The notes below the pieces were generated by a model. It saw nothing but the letters and a program-made list of their open reading frames with translations. It had not been told where the DNA came from and did not search any database. From Spirogloea muscicola (lineage: Eukaryota), in the NCBI GenBank assembly GCA_009602725.1, contig WELB01000005.1:246783-310782 (forward strand): a DNA stretch of 64,000 nt, given 5' to 3'. Of this stretch, positions 31,450 through 41,525 are shown in pieces (the first letter of the stretch is position 1; each line of letters begins with the position of its first letter). The translations under genes were made by a program, and so were the position numbers.

Positions 31450-34400
31450 TCAGGCATCCACCATCTCGTCTTGTATCTCTGCGGGTGCGATGAGGCCAGG
31501 AATGGCCAGCATGCGCTGCCTCTCAGCCTCTCGCTGGGCTGCTGCCTCCTCGGCATACAGGTCCTTGTTGTCCTGCACACAAAGAGTGCGCAGCCAAGGA
31601 CGACTAAGCATAACTTGGACGCACTCTGGGACCAAGCAATGAAGCAAGGACTGCACGAGCATGTTGACTCTTGTGCCCCAACTCTTGCCAGCATGTCTTG
31701 GTGAAAGTACAGTAGTAATCGAACCTGCACCCAAGAAGCAGCTGCATGCAAGGACTCATTGATAGACAAGCTCAACCCCTGCACGGTACCTTGTCCGAGA
31801 ACTCTTTTGATTGCACGAGGAAGTCGCGCAGGTGATTCTTAAAGGCAGCGAGGTCATGCTTGACCTCAAAGCTGCCCTTGACAAATGCAGCCACCTCAAT
31901 GGGAGTCATGTTGGGAAAGGACTCGCTCAGCAACTTGATTGTGTAGTCAAGTACAAAGGCAGCATTGTTTGCAAAGGCCGTCGGCCCCAACTTAGCAACA
32001 TCCCATAGTGGCTGCGTGAGAACATCAGAATCCACCTGCCAAACAGGAGTTGTCCCAGGTAAAAATTGGCAAAGGCAAGTGGAATACCAGCGACTGGAAC
32101 CTGCAAGCCTCTGCATGTTACTGGACTCCATAGACAAACAAGCCAGCTCTTAACAATCTCCTGGGTTATTTCCATAACAAAGTCTACAAAGTCTGGACAC
32201 ACCAGGCAGAAGAGGTGCTGCAAGATTAAGGTATGAAGCTTGAAGCCAGGCTTGTGAAAAGAGTCCGTCAGCACAGCAAAAATTTCCTGCTCAATGGTAA
32301 GGAAGTACGTCTGGTGGAACTGGTTGCAAAACTCCGACGTCTGCAAGCAGGGGTAAAACGAAAATCCTTGACATGAGCGAGGTACAAAGAGCTTATCTGA
32401 GCTGCTCTATGTCCATCAAAGTCGGGCTTTCTGATAGAAGCTTCTCTGGATGACCTCCAGTAGCCTACTCAGATCTAAGAGGAAAAGGAGGTCCCGATCT
32501 GCTCACTGACACTTGGCTGTCCAGATAGACATATAGACAGACCGACAGACCTACCTGGAAGTTGGTGAGTATATCCAGCAGCAAGTCCGCTGGGGCATAC
32601 TGCAAGGTCATTATGTACGGACCACGTACAAGGACCTCAGCAGACAGCTGATAGAAGCCTCTACAACTTCTAAGTACACCTCCAGGTGCATGCCCAAGGT
32701 GATCATGGCGTGCACCCATTAGAGTGAGGTGTTATGGAAGCTGGTGGAAGGTTGACTGAGGAATCGGGGTCTGAGCTATATCTCGAGATTGAGGAATTTA
32801 CTTGTTACTGACCTGGAATTGGGTAAGGATCTCTAATAGGAGGTTGAGGCCTGTCTCTGCAACATTCCTTTCTGTGTGGCGGAATGCCCAGAAGATGCTG
32901 TCCATCACAAGCTTCAATTGCTGCGAGGCCAAAACAGACAACGACCCGCTCAATGTTGAGAAGCAAGTCAATGAGCAGCTATGCGCAGCAAGGAGTACAA
33001 AATGATAATAATGATCATGTCATAGCGGCATGCCTGCATGCCTTCAAACTTAAGAGACGCACACACACCTGGCTGGAAAGAGTGAAAAGTGCACGGAAGC
33101 AATGTGAGGCAATGGCTTTCAAGAGTGAGAAGAACTTGAGCCTGTGCTCAGGGTAATCCTCAAAGTTCGTTGTGATCATCTGGTGTAATGACATCAACAG
33201 TGTTAGCCATGTCAGAAGCACTTGAAGATGGGACACCCGCCAAGTACTAGACAGCAACAGCCAGGTGCTTTTAAGCTGGGTAAGACGAAGTTTCATGCAT
33301 GTCACGGGCTGTGCAACTGCAACCTCCTCAAGAAGATCCTGACCCCTGCTTTGAGCACTAGATGGATGCCTAGAAGCGATAGTTGCTCTACCTTGAGCGT
33401 GCACTCAAAACAGGCCTCGAAAATGCGGGGGACCTCATCAAGCATTGCAACTTTCAACCTGCAAGTAACAGCCCTTCCAGTGAGCCAAGCCTGCCAAATC
33501 TCCACACGTCATCTCGCACAGCACCAAAAACCAAAACATCAACAATGGGACTTGGAGGACGTCGTAAACAAGACCCTCATATTGACAAAGTAGCCCAACA
33601 CTTGTATATACTGCATGCAAAACAAGCGGTAAGACTGCCCTCACTTGTTGATGATGGTGGCAAACAGAGAGAGGACTTCGGATTCCCTTGCATCAGGCAC
33701 ATTGCGCGCGTAGTCTCCAAGGATGGGGTCCATCATAGCCGGCACAAATTGTTTTGCAATGAGCTCGGGGTCCTCGGACTTGTCCACAAACGTCTCAATC
33801 AACTTCAAAGTCTCCCGCTTGACAGACCTGCAACAACGCCACGATAGCCAAAAATGATGACAATCTGCACTGATGACTTGCAAAATAAATTTATCATCGC
33901 ATGCTGCTGCACCATCTTCGGCAAGCAGGACTTGCTTGAGGCAGGATAATGTGCAGGCTGATGAGGCTATCAGTGCTGGCATTTTTGTTAGCCACCAAAG
34001 GTACCTTGTGCTTCCAAGAGCCCAAAATGATAGCAGCAACAGTAGCATCGACAATATTTGGCACAAGCCAGCTGATGTCCATTACCTGAGAAGCTTGACA
34101 AATGACGTTTTTGAAGCGTAAGGCCCTCCTTCAGCAACACTACTTGAGATGAGCTCGCTGTACATCCTGCACAAAATTGAGCAGCAAAACGACTTATAAG
34201 ACTTAATTAGAAACAAGCTCCACCACAGGCATAAAGCTTCCAATGACCTGAATATTACACAACTATGTAGGAAAGTAACAGTCAAGAATGACAGGAACCT
34301 GGTAGATCATTCCAGACTATACGATCATGAAATGACAGCAATAGGGTGGACTATCAAATGACCAAATTGTATGCTGGCATATGCTGTGCCAGCCTACCGG

Positions 34401-37400
34401 TATATATTGAGCATGTCAAGATAGATGAGTGTGATCTGCGTAAGGAAAGGCTGTCCAAGTGCACTAGCCACGCTTGTGTTGGTCTGCATCCGCCGAGCAT
34501 GCACATAGACACGTGTCAGAAATCTGCCTTAGTCATTGAGCTGCAATAGTTGCATCGACATGATTAACTGCTGACAGTTGAAGGAAAGAGTTGTCCTTGA
34601 TATGCACCTGCAGAATGTTCAGAATTGCTCTGATGGAGTCGGGCAACTTCAGAAACTCGACATTTTGCTTAGCCTGTTCAATAATCTGCGCCCATCTCTG
34701 CAGATCACACACCAAGGACAGAGGCAGGATGTGACTGATGCAGTTTGTGCAGTGGCAGACAATGCCAACTGGGCGGTTACTGGAGACTCATACTTACAGA
34801 CAGGACATGGGCTTGCTAGTAATAAGCTTGGCATCAAGAGACTGCTACAGCAAGCTTCTTGGAAAAGCAAGATAGTCTCATGCAGTGCAAAATTTGAGAC
34901 TGACCACGTTGGGCGGCTGCATCAACTTCTGAAGATACTCGTCACGCTTCAGCTGATCAGTTTCTGCTTGGATCATATACCCAACCTGATAGCAGCAAGT
35001 AGACTTGATGAGAAACTTGACTGGCCTGCTTGATAGACTAAGAGGCCAAAAATCCTCTCACCCCACTTGATTAAACTGCACAAATTTGAAGTGGCCATTC
35101 CAAGGACGTACACGTATAGTGCACAAATGGCAAGCTGCACTTACAGACTCGTAGAAGGTGTGGATCTGATGTGCCTGCAGGTCAAGAATGGTTGTTGACA
35201 GCCCTCGTAGAAGCTCTAGTATGAAAGGCTCTGTCTCACCCACCTGCACAAAGAAGCACATGATTAGAAGCACGCTAGCAAATCTGGTGTTGCACAATGC
35301 GATGGCGAATTCGACTTCCATACATATGCTGGTTGAGTATATCAAGCACAGAAAATGGTTTTGCACATCTGACAAGTGAAACCGTGGCATACCTGTAGTA
35401 TCACAAATTTGCGGCGGCACTTCTGTACAATCTTCAAGAAGGTGTCACACGCCATGTCCTTTTATTTGCAAGAAGCAGGAGGCCTGTCAGTATAGCTGCC
35501 AGCCTAGCGCACAGCACAGGCACGCGTACATTGCGAGGCGAATCGAAAAAGAGGCAAATCTAGCTATTTGGAAACAATTGCTCACACATTGAAAGTTAAG
35601 GCACGGTCAACATAAGCTCTCAATCAATAAAGTAAAATGGCTCTCATTTACAAAAAGCTGCCCTCAGAGGCCACGGTGAAGAGATAATGCACACACCTGC
35701 ACCCCAGGGTGAGTCTCGTGCATAAATTCAAACAGCTTGTTCACAACCGTCTTCAAGAATTTCCAATGAGCTCGCAAGAATCTCGGATACTGTCCAACGA
35801 CATACCTGCAAAAGCAGACCACAACAATGAGCATGGCACTATGTGGCAGCAGACTTTACATCTTCACAGTGTTCTTTGCTGCAGCAAATGTTCCTGTTTG
35901 CCACTTAGGGCAGTAAATTTAGCATAAATTAGACAGAGCAATTTTGACATGTACGACAGCAGATGAAAGCTCTCCGGCTTCAATTTGCGCCTTTTCAAGG
36001 TCCAATGGCCTAGCCTACATGATGTCACTGGCGACCACCGCCTTATGATCCTTTCCCTTGACTGCCTTTGATAAGGTGAGAAGATCTTGGACCACTTGCA
36101 CCAAGAATCGGCTCTCCTGCATGACAAGTAGCAAGCACTTGGACGTCTCTCAAGAACTAGTCAAGCAGAGGACTCTCTTGTGTGGACAAGACCCGACTCG
36201 ACCCCAGGTCGCCCCACTTTGCTTCGTACATGATGTTGCTGGCAATGACGGCCTTGTTGTCCTTCCCTCTTGTGAATTCACAGAGATTCAACAGGTCGCG
36301 AATCACAGTCACCAAAAAACGGTTCTCCTGCATTGCGCAAGAAGTCCAGCATTCCATGTGACAGCTGCCCAACATCTGCTGACTAACTGGGCAGACACGA
36401 GCTGCACACCGTGTGGTCTCTGTGCCATGGACACACCCGTGCAGCCTTTGACACTTGCATCAGCTTCAGACCCACCCACTGACATCGCAAGCAATACGAC
36501 ATTCACAAACACACTTCCTGGGAGTAGGCTGTCAGAATAATTGTGTTGACTGACCTGATCCTCCACCATAGAACCAGAGATGGAGCCAATCGCCCAGCAC
36601 AGAGTGTTCAGGTTATTCCACGACCATTCATCTCCATTCAGCTGCTTAGTCAGCTTCTTGAGCATCTGCAAAAGTTTAGCAATGTTTGTGCTTGTAAGTA
36701 TCGGCAGGATGCTTCCCAATCTCATCGTCGCCAACTGTAAGGACCTCCCTCTTGATCACGGCCTGAAAGGCATCAAAAGTACATCAATGCTTAACTAGCT
36801 GTCCTTTAGTATGTGGTTGCAAGGCCATTCCATCACATGATTTAACACTATCAGTCATGTGCTGACCTGCTGTTCAGTGTCCTCGTGGTCTAAATGTGAG
36901 AGGTAGATCAGCGTCTCTCTCATTATCTGCAACATTACAACGTGAAGACAATACAACTGAGCACTTACGACTACACCTCTCTGCTCGCACTGCCATCTTA
37001 AAGCCTAGGAGAGCAGAGAAATTGGTTAATACATCAAGCATTTGATCGATGAAGCAACACTCAACAACAACTCTACCTTGTACTGGACAAGAACGTCATT
37101 GTCTTTCATTGTTTCTCGGACTATATTGCCATTTTCGTCCTCAACTATCAAAACCTCCTCTGGCTTGGCCATTCTACTGATCATGAGGAGTCGCAGCTTA
37201 GACATTGGCCCCGAGTACAGCTGCTTTCGTGGTGACATCTGCCCGCCAATCCCGTTCGTCATGGGTGCACCAACTACTAAGCCCACCTGCGAGCCCACAA
37301 GTACAATAATACGTGACTTAGTGTTGTTGCTTCCTACTGCCCTTGCAGTATTTGCAGGTTTGCTCCCTTTGCACAATCTCCATGTCATGACTCAGTAGGA

Positions 37401-40400
37401 GACATGTTTCGCTACTCTCACTGAGGCAAGTCACTGTAGAGCGTACAAGGATGATAGCAGGTGTTCAAATGGACGCTTTGATCTGTGGATACTGCTGTCT
37501 GCAAAACAAACAATGCTTTGCCCGTACTCATGATGGCTGTGTGCATGCTAATAAACTGTGGCGTTTCAAAATTGGAGCAAGTAAAGACTTGCCTGCAACC
37601 CAAGAGGTGTTGGTTGCAATGTTGCTTCCATACTGCACTCTGACTGGAACAGCTCGCAGACAAGCACATTCCAGTAGTCTAAACACACCTGCACACAGCT
37701 ATCAACACTCTCCTTGTAAGATGCCAAAGAAAATATGCCAAGACTTGTTGCTGTCCAAACACACTTGACAAATGGAGTAGAGGAGCATGTGTACCACCCA
37801 TTTGCACAAAATAGAGGTGACTGCATCAAATAAAGCTATGGTGCCAGCAAGGTGGGCAATGAGCTCGCTGCAATTCTGACAAAATGATGCTTATACTGAC
37901 GGAGTATAACCACTGAAAATCAAGAGCACCAACAGCATGCCAATCAAAAGCATAGCTAAGTAGCAAACATCAGAGGGGGTGTGATGAAGACCAAGCAGCA
38001 ACTTGGTAATACAGCTTGGCAGATTCAAGCTAGAGTGCAAGATGTACCTTGAAGACCTCAGTGTCCTCCACGTACGAGATATATATGAGGTAGTCAAGGC
38101 CGAATAGGAGGGGCTCTGGTGCTGCTTCCAAGACCTGGATGTGAGCCTGCGGACACAATGCAACACACCTTAGAACCAGCTACTGGAAGCAGGGAGCTCC
38201 ATGCATTGAGGTGACACTGCAGTGGACTCATGGAGACGTATATGTACAGGTGGTCGTCCAAAACGTCGGATGCTGACGATTGGAGCAACTTGCGTAACCC
38301 AGAGAAATCTATCATCACGTGCTGCCTTCATTAACACAAAAGCACAACGATGCAAGAGAATACATCCAGAGTTCACAACATGCATATCAATCTCACCTTG
38401 AAAAAGGACGTGAAGAAGAGTGCAAGGTTCTGAATGAAAGCCTGTGTACATGTACAGCCAGGCACGGCACCAAGCATCAGATGGGAAATGGCAAAGTAGC
38501 AAAGGTAAAGCTAATGGGAGCACTACTGTCAGACTTGTGATTAGCTGGATGCTAAATTACTGCGAGATAGGGAGGTAGATCCTTGACATGCCAATGTCAC
38601 TGCTTGATAGCCCAATATTACCTGATCCTCATCACTGCCTACGTTATAGGCTTCAGGAATATTTGTAGTGAGCGGCAAGATGGCCTGCAATGGCAGCCAA
38701 GAATATGCATCAGCTTTAGGTATGCCATATATCTACAGCTTCTCCACCCGTAAAAGACCAGGGTCTAATGTCTGCAGCAATTGGATGCATAATAGCTCTC
38801 TTGCCTGAAGCTGCTCCATGAAGAACGTGTATAGCTTGGCAAAGTGTGGATTGTAATAGTCGCCGAAGCTGAGAGCAGCCACCTGCAGCAACCACCCAAA
38901 GGCGAGGCACCTGTTGGCAAGTGATCCTGGGTAGGCATGACGAGAGAATAGGCAGTACATACCCCATAGCAAGTGCAACTTCAACACTGCTGTGCATTAC
39001 CCACAGGCCCTACAATCCTTTTGGTGATTGGACGCAGGTATCTTGATGTGGCACTCCATTGCAAAGCATAAGCAAGCCATGTTGTGTATAACATAGTCAC
39101 AAGCTCAGACTCAGAGGAGGACATGCTTTACTCCAAAGTGATTCCCTCTGCGCCCCACGAAGCGACATGCTTGACACGATCTCAAGCCATTGCTAATACT
39201 GAAAGAGCTCACGATAAAATATTCACCTCTGTGAGGCACTGCAATGCAAGATTTCTGTACGCCGGTACGGGGAAGAGTTTTAACAAACTCTCCAACTGCA
39301 GTGGACACAAGGCACATACAGCAGCAAATCAATATTTGTAACCTGCCATCTTGCTCCATAATCTTCCGCAAGAATGAGAAGTTCCTGTCTACTTAACCCA
39401 GGACAAGAAAACAGCAACACTGTGCATCTCACAATATACAATCCTGACAGCTTCTGCAAATTTGATATCTACATGAGCTCCAAGAAAGGCGGTCTGACCA
39501 GAGTGGACTCAAAAATGTAGCCCAATGGTATCCAAGATAGGAATGCATGCAGTGTGGAGAGCGTCGCCCTGGTCAGTGAGGGCCGCTGCGAGGCAGCGAG
39601 AACATACTGGCAGAGTTCGTGGACCAGCTGGAACTCGCTGCACCAGCAGTGCACACACAAAAGCAACATGGCTGTCACTGCCACAAAAAATCTGGAACCT
39701 GGAGCAGAGGCGCATTCACCAGAGAGAACAGCGGCACATGAGTGCACATGAGTGGCAGCCAGCTTACCTGTTGAGTGATTGTTTCAAGTCTTTGATCTTC
39801 TGCTGAGTCATCTCTCCCCGCGAGAAGTCAAACACCTCCTCACTCAGGAGCTGTAAGTGGATAAGAGATGGTTGTGAGCTCAATCTCAAGCTATGCAGCA
39901 AATGGAAGGCATCAATGATTGACTAGACACATGATCACATTGCATGGATGTCAGCTTCTCATGCATATGCAGCCAACTTCTCGAAGTAGAAGTACCTTAA
40001 GAATGACCATGCAATTTTCACACAGGGTTTCACTGCTCCTTGCAGCTGTTACAAGGTCTGGTATGAAGTTTGGCCAACGTTGAGGCCACTCATGCTTGAG
40101 GACCTGCTCAACATGAATATATGAAGTCATCAGACACAGCAAGCTAAGAGGGCCAGACCCAAATCGACGTCCGACAATGTCAAGAAACTGACGTCACAGA
40201 GGGGGCTGCATGACCCCCATTGCCCAGGACATACTAACTGGAATTACGAATCCTTCGAGCCGCATTCTAAGCAGTACTATCCAGGTTGATGCAGGACACA
40301 AAAACAACAGGTAGGATGGTGGGGCCATCCTTTCATGCCTGGACTAAAATGATGTTGAGTTTGTTGAGGTACAGTCGCTCAGAGCGGAATGTCGTCTCAT

Positions 40401-41525
40401 CTCGTGATATCTGCAGGAAAATCGAAATGATGGAAAGCTCGTTGGCGCGGAGAAGTTGTTATCAACGACAGACAACCCTGCATGCATGCTGACCATGGCA
40501 CGACATGCCATAGTAGTGAAGCTACCTGGTCAAGGCTTCTTTTGATAGAGGACTTTACTGCTATTGGCTGCTAAAGCAAAGCCCTACCTGAACAATCAAA
40601 TCAGAGATGTAGTTCTTGATCCCGTCCCTCTGCTCCACAGGAAGGGCGTTCCACCGGTACTTGATGACACCCTCTAAGACCTGCAAAGTGCCAAACAAGG
40701 AAGAGCATGCTTAGAATCAGCTCAATGGCCAAGATTTTACCAATATCATGAGCCTCGGGATGTTGTCGTTCACTATGTCGGCAGCCTGGGTCTCGCTTCT
40801 TGTGACGACCATGTGCAAGTGGGCTGTGCTACTTGTCCAAGACAAGAAAAGCAGCTGAGTTCCAGGAAAATGACTTTAATGCATGTCCCCTTGCCTAGCC
40901 AAGCGCCTGCACAAAACCTTCGCTAAGAATACTACGGCGGTTGAGCAGACTGACCACTGCTGCACATGCTTAGCCTTCGTGACCTAGAGGACGCCGCACC
41001 ACAGGAGCTCACCTGTAGGGCGAAAAATTTGGAGTTCTGGTTGCGGCTGGTCTGGAGGACCGACACGACGCGCGTCCAGGTCTCGGGATGCTCTTGGAGG
41101 GCTCTCAGGACGCGCTCCGCGGCGGCCCGCTGCAGGAACCGAGGAGCCCGCAGATGGCATTGAATATACACTATCTCAAGCGGTACCAAGCAGGTTGAGT
41201 GCCGGCCGCACGACGACCGCGAGACGGACGCACGCACAGTGCAGCGCCACAAGCTGCTAAGGTCTTTGAGCTTCGGGCCAGAAGCTCCAACTCGTCATAT
41301 TCCGTGTCAAGGCCTACCATGAACGAGCAGGCTTGGCAGAGAGAGCCTCCAAGCCCCATTTGAGCTTACTAAGGAGCTTCTGGAATGGGAGCGAGTTGTT
41401 GGCAGCAGACGACATCATTAAGGCTTAACCTCGTCTTTGGATCCGGTGCCGTAGAAGGCGTCGATGGTGGAGTCGAGGAGGGCAACGTCGAGCGGCTGCG
41501 AGAAGTCGAGCAGCTGCTCTGCCAT
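31450..41525 (-). CDS. XPO1: Exportin-1 (CRM1/XPO1), spliced, ~30 exons
   Basis: [165 protein letters not shown]. Confidence 0.96.
36019..36116 (-). CDS. XPO1: XPO1 NES-groove exon, duplicated alternative variant (Cys->Ser); candidate mutually exclusive exon
   Basis: 98 nt, cag|GAGAGC...ATCAT|gtaggc; open frame encoding [32 protein letters not shown](M). Same length and phases as 36230-36327. Confidence 0.8.
36230..36327 (-). CDS. XPO1: XPO1 NES-groove exon, canonical variant (contains the leptomycin-B target Cys)
   Basis: 98 nt, cag|GAGAAC...ATCAT|gtacga; encodes [32 protein letters not shown](M). Confidence 0.95.

What the first reader, a model, noticed from the sequence alone, without database searches (positions are those of the whole stretch)
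36019..36327. Exportin-1 has tandem alternative exons for the NES-binding groove: Cys (leptomycin-sensitive) versus Ser version
Seen: two exons 113 nt apart, each exactly 98 nt with cag| and |gt ends and identical phases. A encodes [34 protein letters not shown] encodes [33 protein letters not shown]. They share 20/33 residues, and 11 of the 19 complete identical-residue codons differ synonymously, with no indel or stop in B. That pattern suggests an old duplication kept under purifying selection. Including both, or skipping both, shifts the frame. Known: this segment is CRM1 HEAT repeat 11, lining the NES groove, and its Cys (human C528) is the covalent target of leptomycin B and SINE drugs; Cys->Ser/Thr confers resistance. 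Inference: mutually exclusive splicing yields a second exportin with an altered cargo groove (also I->V, R->Q, E->K, N->H, N->D) that resists Streptomyces-type export toxins or redox modification. I am not aware of this having been described, but I cannot check the literature.
Basis: partly seen in the sequence, partly recalled or inferred. Interest (0 to 1): 0.92.

Follow-up and report, generated by a model that had tools for sequence, protein, structure and literature searches.

The report
Swappable cargo-groove exon in algal exportin
A green alga from the sister group of land plants carries two side-by-side copies of the exon that builds the cargo-binding groove of its main nuclear export protein, and a distantly related alga has kept most of the same second copy, which lacks the cysteine that export-blocking toxins attack, so splicing likely makes a second, predicted toxin-insensitive exporter, although only the ordinary form has been seen in RNA.

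Summary
XPO1 of Spirogloea muscicola (Zygnematophyceae; named) has two 98-nt, same-phase exons for human residues 513-545, Cys528 in A and Ser in B. A and B are saturated at silent sites (pS 0.95) but not at replacement sites (pN 0.26). B is identical in protein in all three gene copies. A Mesotaenium gene model holds a B orthologue: 20 of 23 residues equal, sharing all seven B-specific changes in that span, while the rest of the protein is 83% identical, as far apart as Spirogloea and mosses. So B is old and selected. One run's contigs splice A alone and skip B; no B transcript was seen. Using both exons or neither gives a premature stop. Best reading: a rarely used mutually exclusive exon giving an exportin with a retuned groove rim and no reactive cysteine. 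An unnamed chlorophyte-like metagenome protein shows a separate tandem copy with Val at 528, hinting at convergence. Toxin or oxidant resistance as the purpose is untested. No description was found in ten literature searches.

The parts
31450..41525 (-). XPO1/CRM1 gene, ATG to stop, about 31 exons; same span (10,076 nt) and diagnostic residues as EukProt model SM000005S17119 (P0003), listed as Spirogloea muscicola
   Evidence: spliced joints
36555..36665 (-). Upstream constitutive exon (111 nt, ends in phase 0)
   Evidence: joined to exon A in X1 contigs
36230..36327 (-). Exon A, 98 nt, helix H11A-loop-H11B start (human 513-545), canonical Cys form; the form seen spliced
36280..36282 (-). Cys codon of exon A, equivalent of human Cys528
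36117..36229 (-). 113-nt intron between A and B; splicing across it shifts the frame
36019..36116 (-). Exon B, 98 nt, duplicate of A with 13 residue changes; conserved in a Mesotaenium model; not seen in RNA
   Evidence: skipped
36069..36071 (-). Ser codon of exon B at the Cys528 position
35697..35805 (-). Downstream constitutive exon (109 nt, begins in phase 2; rest of H11B and H12A)

Best explanation
XPO1 of this alga carries two homologous, same-length, same-phase exons for the H11 wall of the export-signal groove, the usual exon A is spliced alone, and the long-conserved exon B is likely swapped in under a condition not yet sampled, which would give a second exportin with no Cys528 and a changed groove rim. 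Shown: anatomy, selection on B's protein sequence, B in two distant Zygnematophyceae, A-only splicing, premature stops if both or neither are used. Inferred: B is translated; exclusivity is enforced mainly by frame and nonsense-mediated decay; the groove stays working because L525, A541 and I544 are kept, I521V is mild and all of H12 is shared; the B form cannot be covalently blocked at position 528 and likely prefers a different set of export signals because R522Q and E529K move charge along the rim. I commit to B as a stress or life-stage back-up groove; whether loss of the cysteine or the cargo shift is what selection keeps is open (about even).
For: pS 0.95 against pN 0.26, 0 of 20,000 neutral simulations as conserved. 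Mesen1 model P0006 holds A followed by a B copy: B-B 20 of 23, A-A 22 of 23, every A-B cross pair 13 of 23; seven shared B-specific residues V521, Q522, S528, K529, V531, K532, H536. The two species are 417 of 505 identical in the constitutive C-terminal part, the same distance as to bryophytes (83-84%). B is 33 of 33 identical in three Spirogloea copies while the A-B intron has an indel in one (P0004 linker). X1 contigs join upstream exon to A and A to the downstream exon over 424 nt with GT-AG ends. Frame test. Seven of B's residues occur in 0 of 152 single-copy segments. Literature: Cys528 to Ser or Ala blocks covalent engagement and gives resistance in human cells (PMC13503689, passages); I521, L525 line the groove and I521A is among the mildest mutants, A541K is disruptive (PMC7503480, passages). 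Separate tandem copy with Val528 in P0150/P0164.
Against: No transcript with B: the one run found shows only the A-to-downstream joint. The Mesotaenium evidence is a poor gene model without DNA: B's last 8 codons, its splice sites and the start of the next exon are missing from it. No B orthologue in any other lineage: 6 of 184 held proteins with the segment have two copies, all from Spirogloea, Mesotaenium or P0150/P0164; 7 Closterium models show A only; 0 of 80 metagenome loci have a second copy. The three Spirogloea copies are 99% alike, so identity of B among them is weak support. A regulated stop-introducing splice event is reported for Chlamydomonas XPO1, at another place in the gene (PMC7534427, passages), so unproductive splicing of algal XPO1 has a precedent.
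Confidence: 0.68

Rival explanations
1. B is a poison exon: it is included after A to shift the frame and send the transcript to nonsense-mediated decay, tuning XPO1 levels; it is conserved as RNA, not as protein.
For: A+B gives a stop 50 nt into the next exon. A diurnal exon-skipping event that introduces a premature stop is reported for Chlamydomonas XPO1 (PMC7534427). No B-only transcript seen. No Mesotaenium DNA was available to tell RNA-level from protein-level conservation.
Against: A against B shows saturation at silent sites with residues kept, a protein-level signature; a poison exon needs no groove-compatible residues, yet B keeps the buried and groove residues F516, L517, L524, L525, L527, A541, I544.
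Confidence: 0.1
2. B is a once-functional alternative exon that is now a dead relic in this lineage.
For: No B in the one run; the three copies are recent, so decay may not have had time to show; a second partial exon duplicate lies in the same gene (32599-32555), so relics can persist here.
Against: Intact splice sites and frame; 20 of 23 identity with Mesotaenium B, no lower than the 83% of the constitutive protein; no residue change in three copies, whereas the 15-codon second duplicate has two.
Confidence: 0.07
3. B is a real alternative exon but makes a groove-weak or groove-dead exportin that dampens export or serves signal-independent jobs.
For: B changes four positions that are near-invariant (I521, R/K522, C528, E529: B residue in 0 of 152).
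Against: Changes are mild at the pocket (I521V; I521A is among the mildest mutants); the key residues L525, A541, I544 are kept and K568, F572 lie in the shared exon; yeast-derived and Chaetomium-type chains with Ser or Thr at 528 exist as solved exportins.
Confidence: 0.1
4. A and B are both included in frame through an alternative donor, as the four public gene models draw it, giving a doubled H11 segment.
For: All three Spirogloea models and the Mesotaenium model contain A plus B.
Against: The linkers differ between models (three different read-through lengths), as expected of prediction artefacts; X1 contigs splice A straight to the downstream exon; no such form in 178 other held proteins with the segment.
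Confidence: 0.05

Closest known systems
Tandem-duplicated homologous exons under mutually exclusive splicing (tandem exon substitution events; PMC9741552, PMC8373072, PMC3228551, seen as search listings with abstract starts)
   Same: Equal length, equal phases, sequence homology, old age, isoforms identical but for one homologous segment.
   Different: The listed cases are from animals; here a streptophyte alga, and the swapped segment is the cargo and inhibitor site of the main nuclear export receptor. Use of B is not yet shown.
Cys528-substituted CRM1/XPO1 (human C528S cells, PMC13503689 passages; PDB 4hb3_C with Ser and 4fgv_A with Thr at this place; Auxenochlorella XPO1 with Thr)
   Same: Hydroxyl residue in place of the reactive cysteine; 4hb3_C is B's best PDB match and also shares V540 and D543.
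   Different: Those are engineered or fixed alleles; here Cys and Ser versions sit in one gene, and B also changes 521, 522 and 529.
Alternative splicing of Chlamydomonas XPO1 (Cre03.g146487; PMC7534427, passages)
   Same: Alternative splicing of a green-algal XPO1.
   Different: An exon-skipping event that adds a premature stop and disrupts the N-terminal domain; not a homologous exon swap in the groove.

Membership tests
XPO1/CRM1 exportin | Full CRM1 domain set and match to solved CRM1 | tested here: met
   Precomputed Pfam PF03810, PF08389, PF18777, PF18784, PF18787, PF08767 on P0003; A and B match only exportin-1 chains in the PDB, 35 of 35 hits each.
Tandem-duplicated mutually exclusive exons | Same length and same splice phases | tested here: met
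   98 nt each, AG/GT ends, phase 0/2.
Tandem-duplicated mutually exclusive exons | Sequence homology with open frame in either exon | tested here: met
   19 of 32 residues; both single-exon forms open.
Tandem-duplicated mutually exclusive exons | Conservation of the second exon across species | tested here: met
   20 of 23 residues with the Mesotaenium model's B; protein only, 3' end not visible.
Tandem-duplicated mutually exclusive exons | Each exon is spliced in alone | tested here: inconclusive
   A alone seen; B not seen in one run kept as contigs, which drop rare forms.
Tandem-duplicated mutually exclusive exons | The two exons are not used together in stable transcripts | not testable with these tools
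   Needs raw or long reads; frame predicts decay of A+B.
Tandem-duplicated mutually exclusive exons | Enforcing mechanism (steric branch point or competing RNA structure) | tested here: inconclusive
   Branch-like motifs 69 and 80 nt from A's donor; five short inverted repeats of 11-14 nt; folding z 0.46. Nothing stands out.
Covalent-inhibitor-resistant CRM1 | No cysteine at position 528 | tested here: met
   Ser in B of both species.
Covalent-inhibitor-resistant CRM1 | Export continues in the presence of leptomycin B or similar compounds | not testable with these tools
   Bench assay needed.

The most novel reading that the evidence does not exclude
Green algae have at least twice evolved a duplicate, cysteine-free exon for the XPO1 groove (Ser in Zygnematophyceae, kept for over 400 million years; Val in a chlorophyte-like lineage), a splice switch that keeps nuclear export running when microbial toxins or stress-made electrophiles block Cys528.
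Probability: 0.3. Interest if true: 0.9.

Novelty: new variant of a known kind. Interest (0 to 1): 0.72.

Why it matters
The XPO1 groove is almost invariant (Cys in 147 of 152 held segments) and selects hundreds of cargoes; a spliced alternative wall would be a way to re-programme nuclear export from one gene, in the algae closest to land plants. It gives a natural pair of grooves for asking why Cys528 is kept although it is the target of natural toxins, and what residues 521, 522 and 529 do for signal choice. It also means four public gene models of this gene are wrong.

Tried and rejected
No whole genome is held for this window, so the DNA of the other two copies could not be read. RNA: one run listed, X1, RNA by guess, contigs only; its joints have GT-AG ends, so it holds spliced RNA; the lack of cover on B is not evidence of silence. 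Search for more B orthologues: one search gave 3 of 239 candidates and missed P0006, so it is insensitive; one search gave 306 pattern hits, none confirmed; one search gave 4 candidates, none scored; one search gave 14 hits, of which I viewed 10 (four long multi-stretch hits not viewed), none B-like; cluster members of 30 proteins held no B-only isoform. One search kept 80 of 232 confirmed loci, most without introns in this part; 0 of 80 hold a second copy; their taxa were not determined and they say little about Zygnematophyceae. RNA structure and steric exclusion: nothing above chance. A neutrality test from the three copies was considered: 30 coding differences from X1 contigs (of 40 shown; 10 in the 3' end left out) are silent (29; the one at 35760 was read in the wrong frame there and is a third position of a Lys codon by hand), but without B DNA of the copies and with bubble-biased contigs I give it little weight. 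ESM Atlas on P0150 only returned CRM1 fragments. No structure or complex was predicted: it could not tell these grooves apart. Three papers on LMB and groove structure were not held. Earlier scan findings: nothing on this gene.

Full report
Observation. The minus strand holds a complete XPO1 gene from 41525 to 31450. After the exon ending at 36555 come two 98-nt exons, A (36327-36230) and B (36116-36019), each with an AG acceptor and GT donor, phase 0 in and phase 2 out, 113 nt apart. A aligns without gaps to human XPO1 513-544 (3gb8_A), which puts Cys528 at position 16; B has Ser there. A and B share 58 of 98 nt and 19 of 32 full-codon residues, 11 of these by different codons; mismatches by codon position are 10, 8 and 22; pS is 0.95 and pN 0.26; 0 of 20,000 random placements of the same 40 changes kept 19 residues. 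Either exon alone keeps the frame; both give a stop 50 nt into the next exon and neither a stop 75 nt into it.

Organism and copies. B read in frame finds three EukProt models, listed as Spirogloea muscicola. P0003 has the span (10,076 nt) and residues of this window; P0004 and P0005 are 99% identical further copies, in line with the genome triplication mentioned in PMC7994812 (passages). All three models force A and B together with differing read-through linkers; B is 33 of 33 identical in the three.

Conservation. A search with the A+B region (best 120 of 3,334 hits listed) found one more model covering both: jgi/Mesen1 ME000107S10808 (P0006; that Mesen1 stands for Mesotaenium endlicherianum is recalled). 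Over residues 515-537 B-B identity is 20 of 23, A-A 22 of 23, and every A-B pair 13 of 23; the two B copies share V521, Q522, S528, K529, V531, K532 and H536. Seven shared derived residues make two separate duplications unlikely. The two proteins are 417 of 505 identical in the constitutive C-terminal part, as far apart as Spirogloea and bryophytes, and a tree of 21 rows groups Mesen1 with Closterium (89/91) apart from Spirogloea. In Supplementary Table 1f of PMC11096116 (two parts read) nodes carry numbers only; by my reading the three deepest zygnematophyte nodes are 520, 460 and 411 million years, and this split must be one of them (inference). No B was found elsewhere, but these searches see gene models, fragments or other algae and do not show absence.

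RNA. One run, X1, was listed. Its contigs skip introns with GT-AG ends along the gene. Two contigs join the upstream exon to A and one joins A to the downstream exon across 424 nt, skipping B. So the A-only form exists and the public A+B models are wrong for it. No contig lies on B; contigs drop rare forms.

What B would change. The groove is formed by HEAT repeats 11 and 12, with Leu525, Ile544, Phe561, Lys568 and Phe572 lining it (PMC13503689, section 8); I521, L525, F561, F572 contact the signal, I521A and L525A are the mildest single mutants and A541K is disruptive (PMC7503480, passages); Lys568 is the selectivity filter (PMC5358978, first part of Results). B keeps L525, A541, I544 and shares all of H12; it changes I521 to V. 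Of its 13 changes, seven (514, 519, 521, 522, 526, 528, 529) occur in 0 of 152 single-copy segments held, which include one mis-spliced model and three fungus-like fragments; the others occur naturally, and V540 and D543 are in yeast-derived PDB chains. That 522 and 529 sit on the groove rim follows from helix period next to 521/525/528 and from recall, not from a call. Leptomycin B from Streptomyces and the other known inhibitors, including plant compounds, bind Cys528 covalently (PMC5661660 and PMC7221118, passages), and C528S or C528A gives resistance in human cells (PMC13503689, passages). So the B form is predicted to escape covalent block; that this is why it is kept is inference.

A possible second origin. 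P0150 and P0164, from unnamed ENA contigs, hold two tandem copies of a longer segment ending at the same Met; the first has Val at 528 and differs at only 2 of 33 groove positions, the second has Cys; the two proteins differ only in the short linker, as an intron would. The second copy resembles chlorophyte-type loci. Without DNA this is a lead. Auxenochlorella has Thr fixed at 528. Together these suggest repeated loss of the cysteine in green algae.

Mechanism of exclusivity. Frame plus decay is enough on paper. The 113-nt intron is only a little shorter than spliced introns of 120 and 124 nt in this gene; branch-like motifs lie 69 and 80 nt from A's donor; no notable RNA structure was found.

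Novelty. Ten searches of the held library, of which addressed prior description, showed no report of alternative groove exons in XPO1. Two hits were read by passages: PMC7534427 reports a stop-introducing exon skip in the N-terminal part of Chlamydomonas XPO1 and PMC7563716 intron retention in human tumours. One search listed 40 of 1,261 papers. Subscription journals, exon catalogues and most supplements were not seen and could hold this event. It is a new variant of a known kind, tandem homologous exon substitution, placed on the cargo and toxin site of the main export receptor.

Verdict. Observation confirmed; B is old and selected (strong); B is a translated alternative exon (about 0.8); the full reading of a working back-up groove without the cysteine 0.68; toxin or electrophile escape as the driver, with convergence, 0.3. 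Interest 0.72.

Noticed in passing
window 32599-32555, minus strand: A 45-nt, in-frame AG/GT-flanked piece that repeats the 3' end of exon 32920-32813 (8 of the last 11 residues equal, 22 of 33 nt, mostly silent differences). All three Spirogloea models include it, with two residue changes among them; the Mesotaenium and Closterium models lack it; X1 contigs skip it. A second, partial exon duplicate, cassette or relic.
   Followed up: partly
proteins P0150, P0164 (unnamed ENA contigs): Separate tandem duplication of the XPO1 groove segment in a chlorophyte-like sequence, first copy with Val at the Cys528 position. DNA not available.
   Followed up: partly
proteins P0116, P0222, P0223: Auxenochlorella XPO1 has Thr fixed at the Cys528 position, so it is predicted to be insensitive to covalent export inhibitors.
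   Followed up: no
window 38803-38682 and near 40340, minus strand: The intron ending at 38682 has a GC donor, seen spliced in X1; the exon ending near 40340 also appears to be followed by a GC donor, which the public models mis-splice.
   Followed up: no
loci L011-L080: Many marine metagenome XPO1 loci carry Ala at 520 and His at 536 in an otherwise canonical groove segment.
   Followed up: no
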